From an uncultured Candidatus Saccharibacteria bacterium (GTDB taxonomy: Bacteria > Patescibacteriota > Dojkabacteria > J137): a DNA stretch of 44,791 nt. Position numbers and translations under genes: made by a program. Shown here piece by piece: positions 18,385 through 39,923 of the stretch. Location: the NCBI GenBank assembly GCA_964445405.1, contig CAYUKX010000002.1:1-44791 (forward strand), given 5' to 3'. The first letter of the stretch is position 1. Each line of letters opens with the position of its first letter. Below the pieces are notes generated by a model. That model made no database searches. It worked only from the letters and a program-made list of their open reading frames with translations, and was not told the DNA's origin.

Positions 18385-18396
18385 TATTTAAGGTTT

Positions 18397-18413
18397 GGGG
18401 GCATTCTGCCCCC
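18397..18413. terminator. GC-rich hairpin between convergent rubrerythrin and island-1 ORF
   Basis: GGGGGCA-ttc-TGCCCCC lies 13 nt after the rubrerythrin stop and 6 nt before the minus-strand ORF stop. Confidence 0.65.
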
Positions 18414-18418
18414 ACCTA

Positions 18419-18685
18419 CTAATCTCGAGCGTCCCATTTTTGCCGTGCCCGCTCATTGGCTTTACGGACTGCGTTGTCCGCAATCATGAGGGGGCGGATC
18501 ATCAGCCACAATGCTGCGGCCCACCCATCAAACACTAAAAGGGTCAACTCGACACTTCCCCCTACAAAATTGTTTACAATCACGTAGGGGCCCATTGTAA
18601 GTAGCATTAGTTGTGGCAGGCTCGCGTAGAACCAACCTAGCACCACAGCTAATACGATCAAGAGCTTTACAGTTCTGCCAAGCAT
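18419..18685 (-). CDS. Small (88 aa) two-helix membrane protein encoded in G+C-rich island 1
   Basis: AGGAG sits 5 nt upstream of the ATG. Hydrophobic segments are KLLIVLAVVLGWFYASLPQLMLL and VELTLLVFDGWAAALWLMIRPLMI, with a charged tail. Codon usage (GCG, CGC, CTG, CCC) is unlike the neighbours. Confidence 0.55.
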   Translation of the reverse strand: MLGRTVKLLIVLAVVLGWFYASLPQLMLLTMGPYVIVNNFVGGSVELTLLVFDGWAAALWLMIRPLMIADNAVRKANERARQKWDARD

Positions 18686-18713
18686 TTTAGCTCCTAGACC
18701 TTTGCTTGCTTGA

Positions 18714-18722
18714 ATTATAACA
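18714..18722 (-). promoter_or_regulatory. Extended -10 promoter element for island-1 ORF
   Basis: The minus strand reads TGTTATAAT (TGnTATAAT), ~29 nt upstream of the ATG. There is no good -35. Confidence 0.4.
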
Positions 18723-18816
18723 TCTCTTATTCGATTGGCAGATATAGCTATTCTTTATTGACTTGAATAAGAATTAGTTTTAAACTCAGAATAACTTAAA
18801 TTATTAACTATAAAAC

Positions 18817-34333: not shown

Positions 34334-36232
34334 TTAAGCTAATCCCATTTCTCGTTTAGCTACATCGTTTAGATTCTTTCTCTTGGACCAATCTCTTTGT
34401 GTTTTAGTTAAGAATTGTTTTCTTAGTCTTAAACTTTCTGGTGTTACTTCTAGTAATTCATCGTCGTTTAAGAATAGTAGAGCATATTCTAGTGTAATTT
34501 CTTTAATTGCTTTTAAAGAAGTTTGTGTAATTTCATCGTGCTTCATTCTAACTGCAGATTTTTGTCTTTCCTTAATTGGATTAACTTCTAAGTCTTGATC
34601 GAATTTATTTAAACCTAAAATCATACCTTCGTAAACTTTAGTACCAGGACCAACAAATAAGTCACCTCTTTCTTGTACTGTGTTTAATGAATAACCCATT
34701 GCAACACCATTTTCCATGGAAATTAACACACCTCTTCTATAGTTTGGCTCCATTTTCTGTACTGGAACATAATCTATTAAGTAGTTATTCATTACAATAT
34801 TTCCTTTTGTTTGGGTTAAAAGAGTGTTTCTTAAGCCTAATAGTTTTCTTGTAAGGATTTTGTAAGTGAACTTTACTTGTCCATTTTCCATTTCCATATC
34901 AACTAATTCAGCTTTTCTTTCACTTAAAGCAGACTGAACAGTTCCCTGGAATTCTGAAGGAACATCGATTGTTACTTCTTCTAGTGGTTCCATTTTTTGT
35001 CCATCTTTTTCAATAAAAATTACTTCTGGTTTTCTAATTTGAAATTCGTAACCTTCTCTTCGCATTGTCTCGATTAAAATAGCCAATTGAAGTTCTCCTC
35101 TTCCAGCAACGTAGTAACTACCTGCGTCTCCTTTTGTAATCTTTAAAGAGATATTAATTTCTGCTTCTTTTTCGATTCTTGATTGTAATTGTTTAGCTGT
35201 AACAAATTTGCCTTCTTTACCCATGAATGGAGAGGTATTTGCTTCGAATTTAATTTGAACAGATGGATTTGTAATTTTTATAGATGGTAAGCTTTCTACA
35301 TGGTTAGCAATGCATAATGTTCCACCAATCGCTGTAGATTCAACACCTGAAATTGCAACAATTTCGCCAGCGGAAGCACTTCTAATGTCTTCGTAAGCTA
35401 AGCCTTCTTTTACTTTTAAGCTCTTAACTCTTCCTGTGTCTTTGCCTGCATCAGCTGCATCACTGTGTAGAATCACTATTTGATCATCAATGTTTACTGT
35501 ACCTCTTTTGATTTTACCTACTAGTAATCTACCTAAATGAGCATCGTAGTCTAAACTTGTAACCAACATCTGTAACGGTTGGGTTTCGTCACCCTTAGGT
35601 GAAGGAATATAGTCTAAAATTGCATCTAAAATTGGAGCCATATCGCCGTCAATTGAATTTGCAACTGTTAAATCGCCTTCTGGTAATTGTTTAAATACTT
35701 TACCTTCTCTTCCGATTGCGTAAAATACAGGAAATTCTAATTGGCTATCATCTGTTGCTAAAAGTAAGAATAAATCTTGAACTTTATCTAGGACTTTTTG
35801 AGGATTTGAGAACTTCTTGTCAATTTTATTAATAATTAACATTGGCTTTAAACCCATTTCTAAAGCTTTTTTCAGTACAAATTTAGTTTGGGGTTTTGGT
35901 CCTTCTTGAGCATCCACTAATAAAATACAACCATCAGCCATATTTAGTGTTCTTTCAACTTCTCCTCCAAAATCGGCATGGCCTGGTGTATCAATAATGT
36001 TAATTTTATGACCTTTGTATCTTATAGAAATGTTTTTAGCTTTAATTGTAATACCTTTTTCTCTTTCTAAATCTCCTGAGTCTAAGATCATTTCTTGAGC
36101 CATTTCGTCTTGGTTATCTCTAAAAACATGAGTTTGTTTTAGAAATGCGTCTACTAGGGTAGTTTTACCGTGGTCAACATGTGCAATTATTGCTATGTTT
36201 CTTATCTTTGATTGTTCAGGCTTGGTATACAT
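34334..36232 (-). CDS. typA: Translational GTPase TypA/BipA
   Basis: IRNIAIIAHVDHGKTTLVD, DTPGHADFGGEVER and NKID are present, with EF-G-like domains throughout. I prefer the start at Met16 (MYTKPEQSKIRN); the tracked ORF extends to a TTG at 36277. Confidence 0.93.
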   Translation of the reverse strand: MYTKPEQSKIRNIAIIAHVDHGKTTLVDAFLKQTHVFRDNQDEMAQEMILDSGDLEREKGITIKAKNISIRYKGHKINIIDTPGHADFGGEVERTLNMADGCILLVDAQEGPKPQTKFVLKKALEMGLKPMLIINKIDKKFSNPQKVLDKVQDLFLLLATDDSQLEFPVFYAIGREGKVFKQLPEGDLTVANSIDGDMAPILDAILDYIPSPKGDETQPLQMLVTSLDYDAHLGRLLVGKIKRGTVNIDDQIVILHSDAADAGKDTGRVKSLKVKEGLAYEDIRSASAGEIVAISGVESTAIGGTLCIANHVESLPSIKITNPSVQIKFEANTSPFMGKEGKFVTAKQLQSRIEKEAEINISLKITKGDAGSYYVAGRGELQLAILIETMRREGYEFQIRKPEVIFIEKDGQKMEPLEEVTIDVPSEFQGTVQSALSERKAELVDMEMENGQVKFTYKILTRKLLGLRNTLLTQTKGNIVMNNYLIDYVPVQKMEPNYRRGVLISMENGVAMGYSLNTVQERGDLFVGPGTKVYEGMILGLNKFDQDLEVNPIKERQKSAVRMKHDEITQTSLKAIKEITLEYALLFLNDDELLEVTPESLRLRKQFLTKTQRDWSKRKNLNDVAKREMGLA

Positions 36233-36332
36233 AAAACTGTGTTTAAAAATGACTTGGAATTTTACCACAAAAAGCAAGTAATTTCTAATGTAGATAATTA
36301 AATTAGGTGATTAGTCAGTTGAACACTACGTG

Positions 36333-36361
36333 TTGAGAATTATATACTAATAATATATAAT
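36333..36361 (+). promoter_or_regulatory. Sigma-70-like promoter for island-2 ORF
   Basis: TTGAGA, a 17-nt spacer and TATAAT (perfect -10) lie ~27 nt upstream of the ATG. Confidence 0.5.
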
Positions 36362-36387
36362 CCAGTGTGCATATACGGAGGTGTTGG

Positions 36388-36807
36388 ATGAAAACCCGAG
36401 CTTTTAATTTGGTGGTTGCGGCAATTGCTGTTGACTTGCTACTAATATTAGTCGTAGTGGCAACGTCACCTTTGGTGAGTTCGGGCAGTTCGGACTGCGA
36501 TGTAGTGCGTCAGGCGGGGCCAATGATTTGGTCTCGCAACCTGGACGGGTTGACAGGACTGTTGGATGGTCAGGATGTCGACCATCTGCGCTCGGTCGCA
36601 CCTGATTGTGGATATCCGCAGTCGATGTGGCTTAGTACGCCGACTTACGGTCCGACGCCCACATTCAGCTGGAATTGCAGTGCCGAATCTGAGAGGATTA
36701 CGCGGAATCAGAGAAATCCGCGGGAGCTCGGCACAGCAGTCCGCAGGCTAAACCAATGTCGCGCGCAGCTCGCGGCGACTGCTACGGCAACATACCGTAG
36801 CCCCTAA
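36388..36807 (+). CDS. Small (139 aa) signal-anchored, 4-Cys protein encoded in G+C-rich island 2
   Basis: GGAGG at 36377-36381 lies 6 nt before ATG 36388. The N-terminal helix is FNLVVAAIAVDLLLILVVVATSPLV. A hairpin terminator follows directly. Coding status is uncertain because G+C-rich DNA yields spurious ORFs. Confidence 0.45.
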   Translation: MKTRAFNLVVAAIAVDLLLILVVVATSPLVSSGSSDCDVVRQAGPMIWSRNLDGLTGLLDGQDVDHLRSVAPDCGYPQSMWLSTPTYGPTPTFSWNCSAESERITRNQRNPRELGTAVRRLNQCRAQLAATATATYRSP

Positions 36808-36814
36808 CGTGCAA

Positions 36815-36837
36815 AGCGCCACCCAAAAGGTGGCGCT
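36815..36837. terminator. GC-rich hairpin after island-2 ORF
   Basis: AGCGCCACC-caaaa-GGTGGCGCT starts 8 nt after the stop codon. Confidence 0.7.
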
Positions 36838-36873
36838 AAAGTTTCTACTATATATTGTCAATCTTGAATCCTT

Positions 36874-37428
36874 CTATTTTATATATCTTGAAATATCTCT
36901 TTGGTGCTCTGGGTGCTTTTTTATATAAGCTAACGATACTGGATCTAAATAGTATCTGTTGTGTGCGACTTCTTCTTGAACCATTTTTGCAAAATATGCT
37001 ACAACAAAGGAGATTGTAATAAACGTGGTATCGTTTGCAAAAACTGTTTGAGATATTATGTATAAAGGAAAGAAGAACTCTAATAGATTTGGATAATATA
37101 TTAAATATTTTGAGTTTTTAGTCACTTCAAAAAATATACTGCCAATAATTCTTAGAACAAAATAAGCTACAAATAACCATAATAATTGGTAGTTTGTATA
37201 CCATACTGCAAGCACCATGTAGAAAACAAATAATAGATCTAGTACTTTATCTATCATCTGATAGGTTATATATCTAGCACCACTTCTGAGCGCGAACGAA
37301 TAATCAAAGGCATCTAAAACAAAAGTTATAAGCCATGCTAATAATGGTTGAGTTAAAAAAAGTGGGAAAATAAAAATTCGTATAAGTATTATTACTGAGT
37401 AAGCAAGTTTAAAGAACAATTTATACAT
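36874..37428 (-). CDS. Polytopic membrane protein, unknown function
   Basis: The 184-aa protein has about 5 hydrophobic helices and native AT-rich composition. It shows only a weak DxxD....DxxxD resemblance (LDAFDYSFALR..IDKVLD) to CDP-alcohol phosphatidyltransferases, which is not enough for a call. Confidence 0.55.
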   Translation of the reverse strand: MYKLFFKLAYSVIILIRIFIFPLFLTQPLLAWLITFVLDAFDYSFALRSGARYITYQMIDKVLDLLFVFYMVLAVWYTNYQLLWLFVAYFVLRIIGSIFFEVTKNSKYLIYYPNLLEFFFPLYIISQTVFANDTTFITISFVVAYFAKMVQEEVAHNRYYLDPVSLAYIKKHPEHQRDISRYIK

Positions 37429-37511
37429 ATATTTATTAGATTTGCTAATTAATTGTATATACTTTAGGTAAATCCAGCAGAGAAGTCAAATACAAGGAAA
37501 ACAGGTGAATA

Positions 37512-37540
37512 TTGACAAAAGTATATATTGGATATATACT
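37512..37540 (+). promoter_or_regulatory. Near-consensus sigma-70-like promoter for island-3 ORF
   Basis: TTGACA (perfect -35), a 17-nt spacer and TATACT lie ~40 nt upstream of the GTG start. Confidence 0.55.
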
Positions 37541-37579
37541 ATATATGTATTTAACAATCGAATTGATGGGGGTGTCAAG

Positions 37580-37912
37580 GTGTTGAAGTCATGGTATTTG
37601 CTGGGGTTGCTCACGTTCCTGGTTTCAGGAGCGATTGCCTCGGTTAATCCGCAGGCAGCGGCTATTTGGAGCGGTTTCGTGAGCATTCTCGCAATTTCTG
37701 CGGGATTAGGGTTTTCCTTAGGGGTAACCATCGTTTTTGCTGTGGCAAAGGGGATCGCCAATGGGTTTACTTTGTTTTTTAACCCGTTCGCGCGGATCGA
37801 CAACCGTGAAACGGACGAAAAAGTCCGTTACATCAACGTAGTCAACATCCTCTGCCTGTGCGCGCTTCTTTGCGTGCATGGGTACATCATCATTGCCGTC
37901 GCGCTCAAGTAG
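37580..37912 (+). CDS. Small (110 aa) membrane/secreted protein encoded in G+C-rich island 3
   Basis: GGGGG at 37568-37572 lies 7 nt before an in-frame GTG at 37580. A signal-like N-terminus (SWYLLGLLTFLVSGAIASVNPQAAA) is followed by two further hydrophobic segments. A strong terminator follows. The tracked ORF start at 37505 lies inside the promoter. Confidence 0.5.
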   Translation: MLKSWYLLGLLTFLVSGAIASVNPQAAAIWSGFVSILAISAGLGFSLGVTIVFAVAKGIANGFTLFFNPFARIDNRETDEKVRYINVVNILCLCALLCVHGYIIIAVALK

Positions 37913-37926
37913 CGTACGGCAAATAC

Positions 37927-37959
37927 AAAAAGGGCGGAATCTTCGGAAACCGCCCTTTT
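37927..37959 (+). terminator. Intrinsic terminator after island-3 ORF
   Basis: AAAAAGGGCGG ... CCGCCCTTTT has an inner TC/GA pair closing a TTCG loop and is followed by a T-run. Confidence 0.8.
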
Positions 37960-38047
37960 GCAGGTCTATTCGACAAACTCCATTTTTTTGCTTGCTCAAA
38001 ATCAACTTTCAAATTATTATATTCTAACTATTTCAAAGTAAATTTTT

Positions 38048-38503
38048 ATGGAAAACAAATCAATTGTAGCAGCGTTAATTGTAATAGTATTTTTAGTAGG
38101 TATATTATTTTTTACAAGCAAACCAGTGGAAAATTCACGAACACAAACAGCAACAGATACTCAATCTAATGCACAACTAACAGAATTAAAAAAGGAAACC
38201 CTAAAAGAGGGAACAGGTGACAGACAAGTTCAAACAGGTGATTTAATAAGCGTACATTACGTAGGTACACTGTTAAATGGTACAAAGTTTGATAGTTCAA
38301 GAGATAGAGGAACACCTTTTGAATTTACAGTAGGTAGCGGAGTCATTGAAGGTTGGAGTGAAGGTGTTGTAGGCATGAAGCAAGGCGAAACAATTAAACT
38401 TTCTATTCCTGCGGAATTAGGTTACGGTGCTCAGGCCGTTGGTTCTATTCCTGCAAATTCAGATCTATACTTTGAAATTGAATTAATGGAATTCAAAAAC
38501 TAA
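38048..38503 (+). CDS. Membrane-anchored FKBP-type peptidyl-prolyl cis-trans isomerase
   Basis: An N-terminal TM is followed by VHYVGTLLNGTKFDSSRDRGTPFEFTVGSGVIEGWSEGVVGMKQGE..IPAELGYG. Confidence 0.92.
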   Translation: MENKSIVAALIVIVFLVGILFFTSKPVENSRTQTATDTQSNAQLTELKKETLKEGTGDRQVQTGDLISVHYVGTLLNGTKFDSSRDRGTPFEFTVGSGVIEGWSEGVVGMKQGETIKLSIPAELGYGAQAVGSIPANSDLYFEIELMEFKN

Positions 38504-38643: not shown

Positions 38644-39258
38644 ATGGATGGGAATCCTTTCTTTGAAAAACCTGCATCTAAGCCACAAAATTGGTTTATT
38701 ATCATATTACAAACGCTTGTAATATTCACTTCTATAGGGATTATTATGTACCTTTTTGTAATATCACCTAACGAAGTTGACGGTCCATCAATGGAGCCAA
38801 ATTTTTACACTCATCAAATATATTTTGCGAATAGAGTAGTTCAGTGGCTAAATGGTACAGAGTTTGGTAAGGTCACAGGCTTTCAATATCAAAGAGGAGA
38901 CGTTGTTGTTTTACAAATTCCTAACTATCCATCTTTTATAAAAAGAATAGTTGCATTGCCAGGCGACAAGATCGCAATTCGCGATGGGAATGTATATATA
39001 AATGATAAGCAAATTTCTGAAGACTATTTGCCACCTGCATTGTATACTAAAGGCGGTGATTTTTTAGAAGACGGTGGTGAATCCCAAATTGTACCGCCTG
39101 GAGCAGTATTTGTTATGGGTGATAACAGAGCAGTTAGCTACGATTCAAGGTATTTAGGCTTTATTCGTAATGACTGGCTAAAAGGAAAAGTCTTCTTAAG
39201 AGTCTTTCCACTAGATGTATTTGGCCTAATTCCTACGGGAACAATAAATTACAATTGA
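38644..39258 (+). CDS. lepB: Signal peptidase I, paralog 1
   Basis: VDGPSMEPNF (catalytic Ser), IKRIVALPGD (Lys box) and GDNRAVSYDSRYLGFI are present. Confidence 0.92.
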   Translation: MDGNPFFEKPASKPQNWFIIILQTLVIFTSIGIIMYLFVISPNEVDGPSMEPNFYTHQIYFANRVVQWLNGTEFGKVTGFQYQRGDVVVLQIPNYPSFIKRIVALPGDKIAIRDGNVYINDKQISEDYLPPALYTKGGDFLEDGGESQIVPPGAVFVMGDNRAVSYDSRYLGFIRNDWLKGKVFLRVFPLDVFGLIPTGTINYN

Positions 39259-39923
39259 AAATGAAGAATCCATTTAAAAGAAATAACACTGAAACTAATT
39301 TCAGTGAAAAAAAAGAGAAGTCCGTCTTAATAGATTTTTTACAATCTGTTACTCTTGCAATTATTTTTTCGTTTATTATATTCAGCATAATTACTCCTAG
39401 CGAAGTAGATGGACCATCAATGGAACCAACCTTCTATAATACCGAAAGAGTTTACACAAACAGATTACCACAATGGTTTAGCACCACAGATATTGGTAAA
39501 GCTTTAGGTTTAGGCTATAACAGAGGTGATGTAATTGTCTTTTTTAAGCCAACAATGGGTAGTTCATTAATTAAAAGAATAGTGGGGTTACCGGGTGACA
39601 CAATTAAAATCGAAGAAGGTAAAGTATATGTAAACGGTCAATTAATTGTGGAAAATTATTTACCTGAAGACATTTATACAAAGCCTGGCAATTTAAGAGA
39701 AGGTCAGGAATATAAGGTACAACTTGAAGAAACAGATACGAATGGCAACCAGATTATTGATCAAGATGTATTTTTTGTAATGGGGGACAATCGAGCTGTA
39801 AGCAACGATTCAAGATACATTGGCTTTGTTAAAAGAGAGTGGATGCAAGGTAAAGTTATTTTTAGACTTTGGCCTTTAAATAAATTCGGAATAATTAATC
39901 CTGGTGACTACGAGTTAAAGTAA
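39255..39923 (+). CDS. lepB: Signal peptidase I, paralog 2
   Basis: VDGPSMEPTF, IKRIVGLPGD and GDNRAVSNDSRYIGFV are present. It has a 4-nt overlap with paralog 1. Confidence 0.92.
   Translation: MKMKNPFKRNNTETNFSEKKEKSVLIDFLQSVTLAIIFSFIIFSIITPSEVDGPSMEPTFYNTERVYTNRLPQWFSTTDIGKALGLGYNRGDVIVFFKPTMGSSLIKRIVGLPGDTIKIEEGKVYVNGQLIVENYLPEDIYTKPGNLREGQEYKVQLEETDTNGNQIIDQDVFFVMGDNRAVSNDSRYIGFVKREWMQGKVIFRLWPLNKFGIINPGDYELK

What the first reader, a model, noticed from the sequence alone, without database searches (positions are those of the whole stretch)
37512..37959. G+C-rich island 3: near-consensus promoter, GGGGG SD, 110-aa hydrophobic protein, strong terminator
TTGACA-17-TATACT (37512-37540) lies in AT-rich DNA. 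Composition then switches: line 37621-37680 has 34/60 G+C. GGGGG (37568-37572) precedes an in-frame GTG (37580).

The product has a signal-like N-terminus ending ...ASVNPQAAA and two more hydrophobic helices. Its C-terminal helix is Cys-rich (LCLCALLCVHGYIIIAVAL). The cassette ends with a GGGCGG/CCGCCC terminator plus T-run.

The size and hydrophobicity are reminiscent of holins, bacteriocin-immunity proteins or small membrane toxins. I recognise no family.
Basis: partly seen in the sequence, partly recalled or inferred. Interest (0 to 1): 0.65.

Follow-up and report, generated by a model that had tools for sequence, protein, structure and literature searches.

The report
GC-rich small membrane-protein gene cassette
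This is a real, self-contained gene for a small orphan membrane protein in an uncultivated ultra-small bacterium (Dojkabacteria). It is one of a few odd cassettes there that combine high G+C, a ribosome-binding site the rest of the genome lacks, and an unusually tightly folded mRNA.

Summary
TTGACA-17-TATACT (37512-37540), GGGGG (37568-37572), GTG 37580 to TAG 37912 (110 aa) and a GC hairpin (37928-37959) are all present.

The ORF is a real gene. Two homologues (72-73% aa) are also exactly 110 aa, start with ATG at the same codon, have no indels, and give dN/dS 0.27-0.42. It is an orphan: only three alleles were found among about 15 billion proteins. Pfam, NCBIfam, PHROGs, PADLOC, PDB, Foldseek and Rfam gave nothing.

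The host is a Dojkabacteria (CPR) genome. The cassette (about 37508-37985) lies in a variable slot between typA and an FKBP gene. That slot is empty in the closest complete genome.

It belongs to a local class with islands 1 and 2 and cassettes in relatives. Members share five traits:
- GC3 of 0.41-0.64 against about 0.2 for native genes.
- A strong Shine-Dalgarno, while native genes lack one (2 of 41 ORFs).
- For islands 2 and 3, the window's two best promoters.
- GC hairpin terminators.
- mRNAs folding far better than synonymous-codon permutations (z -2.8 to -4.4; native mean +0.2).

Sister cassettes sit at the same loci in diverged relatives (one of them saturated at synonymous sites) and stay GC-rich. 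I therefore infer that the G+C is maintained at the mRNA level rather than being a recent import scar. Protein function is unknown: a fast-evolving, recombining envelope protein, possibly toxin- or immunity-like.

The parts
37512..37540 (+). Sigma-70-type promoter, TTGACA (37512-37517), 17-nt spacer, TATACT (37535-37540). The spacer holds an AT palindrome, AGTATATAT-TGG-ATATATACT.
   Evidence: one of only two 11/12 matches in the window. It is conserved in L075/L001 and L002, where homology to the cassette begins a few bases before the -35.
37547..37579 (+). Predicted 5' leader. The TSS near G37547 is inferred. It contains the SD GGGGG (37568-37572), or GGGGGUG.
   Evidence: Read from the sequence. 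Homologues have GGGG or AGGG at the same place, followed by ATG. Native genes lack an SD.
37580..37912 (+). CDS, GTG start, 110 aa. Signal-like TM1 (about residues 4-21, with AIA|SV), a hydrophobic stretch 29-67, a charged loop 68-84 and a C-terminal TM at 85-109.
   Evidence: three alleles, all 110 aa, no indels, dN/dS 0.27-0.42. The AF2 model gives three long helices at pLDDT 83.5. Hydropathy.
37845..37852 (+). ACAUCCUC inside the CDS (codons N89-I90-L91). It is predicted to pair with the SD segment GGGGGUGU (37568-37575).
   Evidence: paired in the MFE of the window and L075 transcripts. These positions barely vary, so there is no covariation support. Inference only.
37921..37926 (+). AAAUAC in the 3' UTR, predicted to pair with the 5' end GUAUUU (37547-37552), closing the transcript 5' to 3'.
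   Evidence: Invariant in all three alleles. Inference only.
37928..37959 (+). Terminator-type hairpin: a 10-bp A/U-extended GC stem and an inner 2-bp stem capped by a UUCG tetraloop. Potentially bidirectional.
   Evidence: About 58 nt around it are identical in all three alleles, while the CDS shows dS 0.5-1.0.
37508..37985 (+). Extent of the cassette as a unit shared between different genomic contexts.
   Evidence: L075 has typA - island 2 - island 3 - FKBP without the 184-aa gene. Homology runs from about 37508 to the FKBP promoter.
36307..37990 (.). Variable slot between typA (34334-36277, minus strand) and the FKBP gene (38048-38503, plus strand). It holds island 2, an AT-rich 184-aa membrane ORF and island 3.
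   Evidence: BroJett037 (L005) has only a 211-nt spacer here. Searches show different contents in relatives.
36333..36838 (+). Sister cassette, island 2: TTGAGA-17-TATAAT, GGAGG, ATG 36388 to TAA 36807 (139 aa, signal anchor plus 4-Cys exported domain), GC hairpin.
18395..18741 (-). Sister cassette, island 1: 88-aa protein with 3 TM segments and a charged tail (18419-18685), SD TAGGAG, hairpin GGGGGCAGAAUGCCCCC.
   Evidence: An orthologue lies at the same locus in BroJett037.

Best explanation
Positions about 37508-37985 are a one-gene expression cassette. It runs from a strong promoter through a short SD-bearing leader and a 110-aa ORF to a UUCG-capped GC hairpin.

Shown:
- The ORF is a real gene under purifying selection.
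- It encodes a polytopic, very hydrophobic small membrane protein with no detectable relatives outside one Dojkabacteria clade.
- It is accessory: absent from the closest complete genome and located in a slot whose content differs between relatives.
- Its alleles are recombination mosaics.
- It shares a five-part signature with other small envelope-protein cassettes of this lineage: high GC3, an SD in an otherwise SD-less genome, GC hairpins, mRNA folding energy far below synonymous-codon permutations and, for islands 2 and 3, the window's best promoters.

Inferred:
- The G+C richness is kept by selection on the mRNA, giving a compact, stable, nuclease-resistant transcript.
- Because the initiation region is as buried as the rest of the transcript, translation needs an SD or standby-type entry and may be gated.
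- The protein acts in the cell envelope as a fast-evolving accessory factor, such as membrane-level self-protection (immunity), a membrane-active toxin, or a determinant of phage or host interaction.
For: Coding status:
- Homologues P0002 and P0003 are 110 aa and start with ATG where the window has GTG.
- There are no indels, third-position changes dominate, and dN/dS is 0.27-0.42. No other frame stays open across all three alleles.

Orphan status:
- The word-indexed search of 5.8e9 clusters found 3 proteins.
- HMMER against 1.84e9 representatives found no credible further hit.
- Pfam, NCBIfam, PHROGs, PADLOC, PDB, Foldseek, phages, plasmids, GTDB genomes and IMG/VR were all negative.

Host and slot:
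- The host is Dojkabacteria.
- The typA-FKBP site is empty in BroJett037, and its content varies in relatives.

Composition:
- GC3 is 0.64 against 0.19-0.29 for native genes.
- The island-2 family occupies the same slot in 6 further contigs at 37-50% aa identity, with GC3 0.41-0.56 throughout.
- Between the window and L075, island 2 is saturated at synonymous sites.
- An island-1 orthologue in BroJett037 (53% aa identity) keeps its SD, its hairpin and GC3 0.44.
- Third-position GC-to-AT and AT-to-GC differences between island-3 alleles are roughly symmetric.

SD: only 2 of 41 long ORFs have an SD core, whereas every cassette has one.

RNA structure:
- The transcript scores z -7.9 and the CDS z -5.2 against dinucleotide shuffles.
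- Synonymous-codon permutation gives z -3.6, -3.3 and -2.8 for the three alleles. Island 1 gives -3.7 and -4.4, and island 2 gives -2.4 to -3.1 in 4 of 5 members.
- Native genes average +0.17 (sd 0.87, minimum -1.2, n=13).
- The consensus fold of the three CDSs is -83.4 kcal/mol against -59.9 +/- 5.0 for column shuffles (z -4.7). SCI is 0.66 against 0.56.
- 9 pairs carry double changes, against 4.2 +/- 1.7 in shuffles.

Mosaicism and flanks:
- Window versus L002 gives dS 0.13 for residues 1-34 and 1.09 for residues 35-88.
- The UTRs are far more conserved than synonymous sites.
Against: - Only three alleles exist, so covariation power is low. The tested structure was derived from the same alignment.
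- The SD/anti-SD and 5'-3' helices barely vary, so they carry no covariation evidence.
- The island-2 family shows no significant shared consensus structure at 53% nt identity (z -1.8).
- Two class members show no folding excess: L004 at -0.6 and the L006 106-aa ORF at +0.1.
- Island 3 has dS 0.65 against 1.3-1.6 for flanking genes. That fits constraint on synonymous sites, but it fits recent lateral exchange equally well.
- No transcript data exist, so the TSS, termination and expression level are all predicted.
- Nothing bears directly on the protein's biochemical function.
Confidence: 0.55

Rival explanations
1. It is simply a recently imported foreign ORFan. A promoter-SD-gene-terminator unit came from an unsampled, moderately GC-rich, SD-using donor (a bacterium, plasmid or phage). 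Its composition and mRNA folding are leftovers with no function in this host.
For: - GC3 is foreign-looking and an SD is present in an SD-less genome.
- Distribution is patchy and the site is empty in BroJett037.
- dS is half that of the flanking genes, and the UTRs are near-identical between lineages whose housekeeping dS is about 1.4.
- The alleles are mosaics.
Against: - No donor or any outside homologue was found in about 15 billion proteins, GTDB genomes, IMG/VR, phages or plasmids.
- The promoter region is AT-rich and resembles those of the other cassettes.
- Sister cassettes occupy the same loci across relatives diverged to 37-53% aa identity, one pair saturated at synonymous sites, yet remain GC-rich.
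- Import does not explain folding excess over synonymous permutations in three diverged alleles.
Confidence: 0.25
2. It is a type I toxin-antitoxin-like module. The hydrophobic protein would be a membrane-damaging toxin. Its long-lived, compact mRNA would be translationally inert, through SD occlusion and 5'-3' closure, until processed. An unrecognised antisense or trans RNA would act as the antitoxin.
For: - A strong promoter drives a very hydrophobic product.
- The transcript folds at z -7.9, and P(unpaired) of the initiation region is 0.25-0.36, no higher than the transcript mean.
- GUAUUU/AAAUAC closure and GGGGGUGU/ACAUCCUC pairing are predicted.
- The UTRs are invariant.
- The hairpin has the better U-run on the minus strand.
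- mRNA folding of this kind is the known control principle of hok/Sok and aapA1/IsoA1 (PMC9841398, PMC5416894, PMC8594479).
Against: - At 110 aa with 3-4 TM segments, it is about twice the size of typical type I toxins.
- The N-terminus looks like a cleavable signal.
- No convincing antisense promoter lies within or next to the cassette.
- There are no extra copies.
- The class also includes an exported 4-Cys protein (island 2) that is not toxin-like.
Confidence: 0.12
3. It is a structured non-coding RNA, and the ORF is incidental.
For: - Folding z-scores are very low and a consensus structure is conserved.
- No protein homologues exist outside the clade.
Against: - The ORF is kept at exactly 110 codons with no indel at 65-77% nt identity.
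- The ATG/GTG start follows an SD, third-position changes dominate, and dN/dS is 0.27-0.42.
- The product has a coherent TM-segment pattern.
- Rfam gave no match at gathering score and only trivial hairpin hits at E up to 10.
Confidence: 0.05

Closest known systems
Phage 'morons' (Hendrix/Juhala concept, e.g. lambda bor and lom, HK97 gp15; from my own knowledge)
   Same: - A single gene with its own promoter and terminator.
- Nucleotide composition unlike its neighbours.
- Inserted between two genes that are adjacent in related genomes.
- Products are often small membrane or exported proteins.
   Different: - It lies in a collinear bacterial chromosome, not a prophage.
- There are no phage homologues.
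- Sister cassettes sit at the same loci in diverged relatives, which suggests vertical inheritance.
Type I toxin mRNAs (hok/Sok, aapA1/IsoA1; PMC9841398, PMC5416894, PMC8594479)
   Same: - A hydrophobic membrane product.
- A strong promoter.
- A compact, stable mRNA with predicted SD occlusion and 5'-3' end pairing.
- Conserved UTRs.
   Different: - The product is 110 aa and polytopic rather than under about 60 aa with one TM.
- No antitoxin RNA has been identified.
- Toxicity is untested.
Small polytopic immunity proteins of pore-forming bacteriocins and colicins (e.g. colicin E1 immunity protein, about 113 aa, 3 TM; from my own knowledge)
   Same: - Similar size and a 3-4 TM architecture.
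- Allelic hypervariability.
- In L075 it lies next to a gene for a small exported Cys-containing protein (island 2).
   Different: - No sequence or fold match.
- Not co-transcribed with island 2, since each has its own promoter and terminator.
- Island 2 occurs without island 3 in six contigs.
SD-bearing exception genes in SD-blind genomes (rpsU of Flavobacterium johnsoniae; PMC13000453, PMC7797042)
   Same: A handful of genes carry a strong SD in a genome whose genes otherwise lack one. This implies a distinct translation regime for them.
   Different: - A different phylum and different gene type.
- Whether this Dojkabacteria ribosome has a free, sequestered or missing anti-SD is unknown.

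Membership tests
Any Rfam RNA family | Covariance-model match at or above the gathering score | tested here: not met
   0 matches in the window; at E up to 10, only weak matches far below gathering scores, several of them on the terminator hairpins.
Holins (Pfam and PHROG holin families) | Profile match to a holin family | tested here: not met
   no Pfam or PHROG hit at E up to 1.
Holins | Lysis-cassette or phage context and a charged cytoplasmic C-terminal tail | tested here: not met
   Neighbours are typA, FKBP and signal peptidases, and the region is collinear with BroJett037. The protein ends ...IIIAVALK inside a TM segment.
Type I toxin-antitoxin | Small (usually under 60 aa) hydrophobic toxin | tested here: not met
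   110 aa with 3-4 hydrophobic segments.
Type I toxin-antitoxin | Highly folded toxin mRNA with an occluded ribosome-binding site | tested here: inconclusive
   In silico only. Transcript z is -7.9, P(unpaired) of the initiation region is 0.25-0.36, and SD pairing with 37845-37852 is predicted. The helices barely vary, so there is no covariation support.
Type I toxin-antitoxin | Antisense or trans RNA antitoxin | not testable with these tools
   No strong minus-strand promoter lies in or next to the cassette. The best is a 9/12 site at 38042-38013. Strand-specific RNA-seq is needed.
SMR / EmrE-type 4-TM transporters | PF00893 match and a membrane-embedded Glu in TM1 | tested here: not met
   No Pfam hit. 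TM1 (SWYLLGLLTFLVSGAIAS) has no acidic residue.
Moron-type autonomous cassette | Own promoter and terminator, deviant composition, inserted between genes that are adjacent in relatives | tested here: met
Moron-type autonomous cassette | Resides in a phage or prophage genome | tested here: not met
   The chromosomal context is collinear with BroJett037 over about 40 kb. No phage families were found among the proteins scanned.
Integron gene cassette | Promoterless ORF followed by an attC site, with an integrase nearby | tested here: not met
   The cassette has its own near-consensus promoter. No flanking repeats were found. The 3' element is a simple perfect hairpin. An integrase was not searched for exhaustively.
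Bacteriocin immunity protein | Genetic linkage and co-occurrence with a cognate bacteriocin gene | tested here: inconclusive
   Island 2 (an exported 4-Cys protein) is adjacent in L075 and nearby in the window. It also occurs without island 3 in L004, L007, L076, L077/L078 and L080.
Sec-type cleavable signal peptide | n-h-c regions with AxA at positions -3 and -1 | not testable with these tools
   K3, a hydrophobic core and an invariant GAIA|S/T are visible in all alleles. No signal-peptide predictor was available.

The most novel reading that the evidence does not exclude
Dojkabacteria may run a second, dedicated expression regime. A small set of fast-evolving envelope or toxin-like genes would be encoded on G+C-rich, hyper-structured, long-lived mRNAs that depend on a Shine-Dalgarno, in a genome whose other genes are AU-rich and SD-independent. 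Their translation could then be switched separately, for example by the availability of the anti-SD, as with bS21 and rpsU in Bacteroidia. Island 3 would be a large hok-like membrane effector of this class.
Probability: 0.2. Interest if true: 0.8.

Novelty: new variant of a known kind. Interest (0 to 1): 0.55.

Why it matters
CPR/Patescibacteria biology is mostly inferred from annotation, and their lineage-specific small envelope proteins are the likely mediators of the episymbiotic lifestyle.

This locus gives a concrete, testable case of compositional-outlier genes that are not simply foreign DNA. Sister cassettes stay G+C-rich at the same loci in diverged relatives. They alone carry an SD, and their mRNAs fold better than their own synonymous recodings.

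If confirmed, this would show selection on mRNA structure and composition overriding a strong AT mutational bias. It would also point to dual translation-initiation modes within one reduced genome. In addition, it gives a simple genome-scan signature (SD plus high GC3 plus small TM protein) for finding such genes in other AT-rich, SD-poor lineages.

Tried and rejected
Searches that found nothing:
- Rfam at gathering and at E up to 10 and tRNA/tmRNA.
- Pfam, NCBIfam, PHROGs and PADLOC.
- PDB by sequence. Foldseek against PDB and BFVD gave only non-significant helical-bundle matches, best E 0.7.
- tblastn against phages and plasmids.
- GTDB genomes and IMG/VR with the family alignment.
- Exact hairpin pattern in GTDB genomes and JGI metagenomes: no hit. 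The JGI contig L003 that carries the locus was not returned, so that collection does not include it.
- HMMER profile against 1.84e9 representatives: two E of about 5e-4 hits in long repetitive proteins, judged spurious.

Ideas rejected:
- A mobile element with terminal repeats or a target duplication: none found.
- An integron cassette: the unit has its own promoter and no attC-like site.
- DGR-type diversification: there is no template repeat, and the variation looks like a recombination mosaic.
- Amino-acid composition as the cause of the G+C: rejected because GC3 is the most elevated codon position.
- A shared consensus RNA structure for the island-2 family: not significant.
- The antisense ORFs 37486-37803 and 37718-38005: not conserved as open frames across the alleles.

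Not achieved: locating a 16S rRNA 3' end among the fetched loci, to check the anti-SD.

Full report
**1. Observation**

- TTGACA-17-TATACT (37512-37540) is an 11/12 match to the sigma-70 consensus.
- A scan of the whole window on both strands finds only two 11/12 sites. They lie immediately upstream of island 2 (36333-36361) and island 3.
- GGGGG (37568-37572) precedes GTG 37580 by 7 nt, and the ORF ends at TAG 37910-37912 (110 aa).
- 37621-37680 has 34/60 G+C.
- The hairpin spans 37928-37959. It has a 10-bp A/U-extended GC stem and an inner C(UUCG)G cap, and its 63-nt context folds at -19.4 kcal/mol.

Two caveats apply. The trailing T-run is only four T, so the consensus terminator scan did not call the site. 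The Cys-richness of the last helix is allele-specific, since only C94 and H100 are invariant.

**2. It is a gene**

A search of 5.8e9 protein clusters returned three proteins. One is the window's own product, called from the upstream in-frame GTG 37505. The other two are 110-aa homologues at 73% and 72% identity.
- Both homologues start with ATG exactly where the window has GTG 37580, behind GGGG or AGGG.
- The three CDSs align without a single indel at 65-77% nucleotide identity.
- Differences are concentrated at third codon positions, and dN/dS is 0.27-0.42.
- Only this frame stays open across all three alleles.
- Rfam finds nothing at gathering score in the window, and only weak matches far below gathering at E up to 10, several of them on the terminator hairpins.

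The non-coding reading is therefore very unlikely.

**3. The protein**

The product has GRAVY 1.1. Its segments are:
- A signal-like N-terminus: K3, a hydrophobic core and an invariant GAIA|S/T.
- An invariant NPQ turn.
- A 39-residue hydrophobic stretch (residues 29-67), which may be one long helix or two TM segments.
- A charged loop, NPFARIDNRETDEKVRY.
- A C-terminal TM that ends the protein.

AlphaFold2 on the three-sequence alignment gives three long helices (pLDDT 83.5 for the best model, 53-61 for the others).

Nothing informative matched:
- Foldseek against PDB and BFVD (best E 0.7).
- A PDB profile search.
- Pfam, NCBIfam, PHROGs and PADLOC.
- A full HMMER scan of 1.84e9 representatives, which added only two marginal hits in repetitive proteins.
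- Phage, plasmid, GTDB and IMG/VR searches.

It is an orphan family with three known alleles.

**4. Host and locus**

TypA next door is 89% identical to Patescibacteria BroJett037 and 84% identical to Dojkabacteria MAGs. The window is collinear with BroJett037 over about 40 kb.

In BroJett037, typA and the FKBP gene are separated by 211 nt. In the window they are separated by about 1.7 kb (36307-37990), which holds island 2, an AT-rich 184-aa membrane ORF and island 3.

Relatives fill this slot differently:

| Contig | Slot content |
|---|---|
| L004, L007, L076, L077/L078, L080 | island-2 homologue only |
| L075 (= L001) | island 2 then island 3, no 184-aa gene |
| L006 | an unrelated GC-rich 106-aa, very hydrophobic ORF |

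Homology between the window and L075 starts a few bases before the -35 and runs to the FKBP promoter. The promoter, leader, ORF and hairpin therefore travel as one unit. No flanking repeats were found.

**5. Why G+C-rich?**

Amino-acid composition is not the cause. GC3 is 0.64, and 0.56 for islands 1 and 2, against 0.19-0.29 for native genes.

A simple recent import is weakened by the sister cassettes:
- The island-2 family occupies the same slot in relatives at only 37-50% aa identity, yet GC3 is 0.41-0.56 in all eight members.
- Between the window and L075, island 2 is saturated at synonymous sites.
- BroJett037 keeps an island-1 orthologue (53% aa identity) at the same locus, with an SD, a GC hairpin and GC3 0.44.
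- Between island-3 alleles, third-position GC-to-AT and AT-to-GC differences are about symmetric.
- No outside donor exists in any database searched.

**6. Two further distinguishing traits**

First, native genes here are essentially SD-less. Only 2 of 41 long ORFs have GGAG, GAGG or AGGA at -20 to -4, and one of those two is island 2. In contrast, every GC-rich cassette has a strong SD. A combined filter of SD plus GC3 of at least 0.38 picks out the cassette ORFs, plus a few short ORFs I did not examine. It also picks up another small TM protein in a more distant genome, L064.

Second, the mRNAs are predicted to be unusually folded:
- The island-3 transcript has MFE -172.6 against -129.7 +/- 5.5 for dinucleotide shuffles (z -7.9). 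For the CDS alone, z is -5.2.
- Against permutations that keep the protein and codon usage but reshuffle synonymous codons, the three island-3 alleles score z -3.6, -3.3 and -2.8 (0 of 80 permutations as stable in each).
- Island 1 scores -3.7, and -4.4 in BroJett037. Four of five island-2 members score -2.4 to -3.1.
- Thirteen native genes average +0.17 (sd 0.87, minimum -1.2).
- The three island-3 CDSs share a consensus fold of -83.4 kcal/mol against -59.9 +/- 5.0 for column-shuffled alignments (z -4.7). SCI is 0.66 against 0.56 +/- 0.04.
- On the RNAalifold structure, 9 pairs show double changes against 4.2 +/- 1.7 in shuffles. That structure was derived from the same alignment.

In the folds, the SD segment GGGGGUGU pairs with ACAUCCUC (37845-37852), and the 5' end GUAUUU pairs with AAAUAC (37921-37926). 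These helices barely vary, so they are predictions only.

There are counter-examples. The L004 island-2 member and the L006 106-aa ORF show no folding excess. The island-2 family shows no significant common structure at 53% nucleotide identity.

**7. Evolutionary dynamics of island 3**

Between the window and L075:
- Flanking genes have dS 1.3-1.6 and dN/dS 0.04-0.06.
- Island 3 has dS 0.65, dN 0.18 and dN/dS 0.27.
- Its UTRs are nearly invariant.

Between the window and L002, which is otherwise a near-identical strain, residues 1-34 have dS 0.13 while residues 35-88 have dS 1.09 and dN 0.47. The alleles are therefore recombination mosaics with a hypervariable core. Either synonymous and UTR sites are constrained, or the cassette is exchanged among lineages, or both.

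**8. Interpretation**

The anatomy is that of a moron-type autonomous cassette located in a chromosome. The mRNA features recall type I toxin transcripts (PMC9841398, PMC5416894, PMC8594479). However, the product is too large for that family, and no antitoxin RNA is visible. The SD exception recalls rpsU in SD-blind Bacteroidia (PMC13000453, PMC7797042).

I commit to the following reading. This is a strongly expressed accessory gene for a small, fast-evolving polytopic membrane protein. Its G+C richness is maintained because the transcript must be compact and stable and needs an SD to be translated. The protein's role in the envelope (immunity-like, toxin-like, or phage or host interaction) remains inferred.

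Rivals, with confidence:
- Plain recent import: 0.25
- Type I TA-like module: 0.12
- Non-coding RNA: 0.05

**9. Verdict**

The gene is new as a family. The class signature (GC3, SD and folding) has not, to my knowledge, been described. I only searched full text for Shine-Dalgarno usage and highly expressed small proteins in these bacteria, and that turned up nothing relevant. Interest is moderate to high, limited by the lack of functional or transcript evidence and by the small number of alleles.

Noticed in passing
window, all long ORFs (e.g. 38048, 38644, 18817, 17986): Native genes have AU-rich upstream regions with no Shine-Dalgarno. Only 2 of 41 ORFs of at least 120 aa carry GGAG, GAGG or AGGA at -20 to -4. 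This Dojkabacteria genome appears to initiate translation largely without an SD.
   Followed up: partly
window 36333-36838 (CDS 36388-36807, + strand): Island 2 is a 139-aa protein with a signal anchor and four conserved Cys. It has GGAGG, an 11/12 promoter and a GC hairpin. Homologues at 37-50% identity occupy the same typA-FKBP slot in six other contigs, always as a GC-rich island.
   Followed up: yes
window 18395-18741 (CDS 18419-18685, - strand); L081 9233-9511: Island 1 is an 88-aa protein with 3 TM segments and a charged, holin-like tail. An orthologue (53% identity) lies at the same locus in BroJett037. Both have an SD, a GGGGG...CCCCC hairpin, raised GC3 and strong folding excess (z -3.7 and -4.4).
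   Followed up: partly
window 36874-37428 (- strand): A 184-aa, AT-rich multi-TM ORF with native-like GC3 (0.24) and no family hit. It lies between islands 2 and 3 in the window, L003 and L002 but is absent in L075. It is another accessory gene of the slot.
   Followed up: partly
L006 9516-9836 (- strand): A different GC-rich ORF (GC3 0.58) with an SD, encoding a 106-aa, extremely hydrophobic protein (GRAVY 1.9). It occupies the typA-proximal slot in Dojkabacteria BIN12. Its promoter resembles that of island 3, and it shows no folding excess.
   Followed up: partly
L079 5001-5504: A 167-aa distant island-2 homologue forms a GC-rich island (0.5-0.58) in a different AT-rich genome context, upstream of a YggT-family gene.
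   Followed up: no
L064 14630-14860 (- strand): In a more distant relative (TypA 73%, 30% GC) there is a 76-aa protein with a single TM and a charged tail. It has SD AAGGAGAGG and GC3 0.53, the same signature as the cassettes.
   Followed up: no
L075 2503-2835: The island-3 homologue on this ENA contig was not called as a gene by the source's gene caller, although the ORF is intact. Such cassettes may be under-annotated.
   Followed up: no
L004 (JACSRR010000189.1): This contig is labelled Ignavibacteriaceae, but it carries Dojkabacteria-type typA (89%), an island-2 homologue and the FKBP gene. It is probably mis-binned.
   Followed up: no
window 38644-39923: Two tandem signal peptidase I paralogues lie just downstream of the slot. 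Their synteny is conserved in relatives.
   Followed up: no
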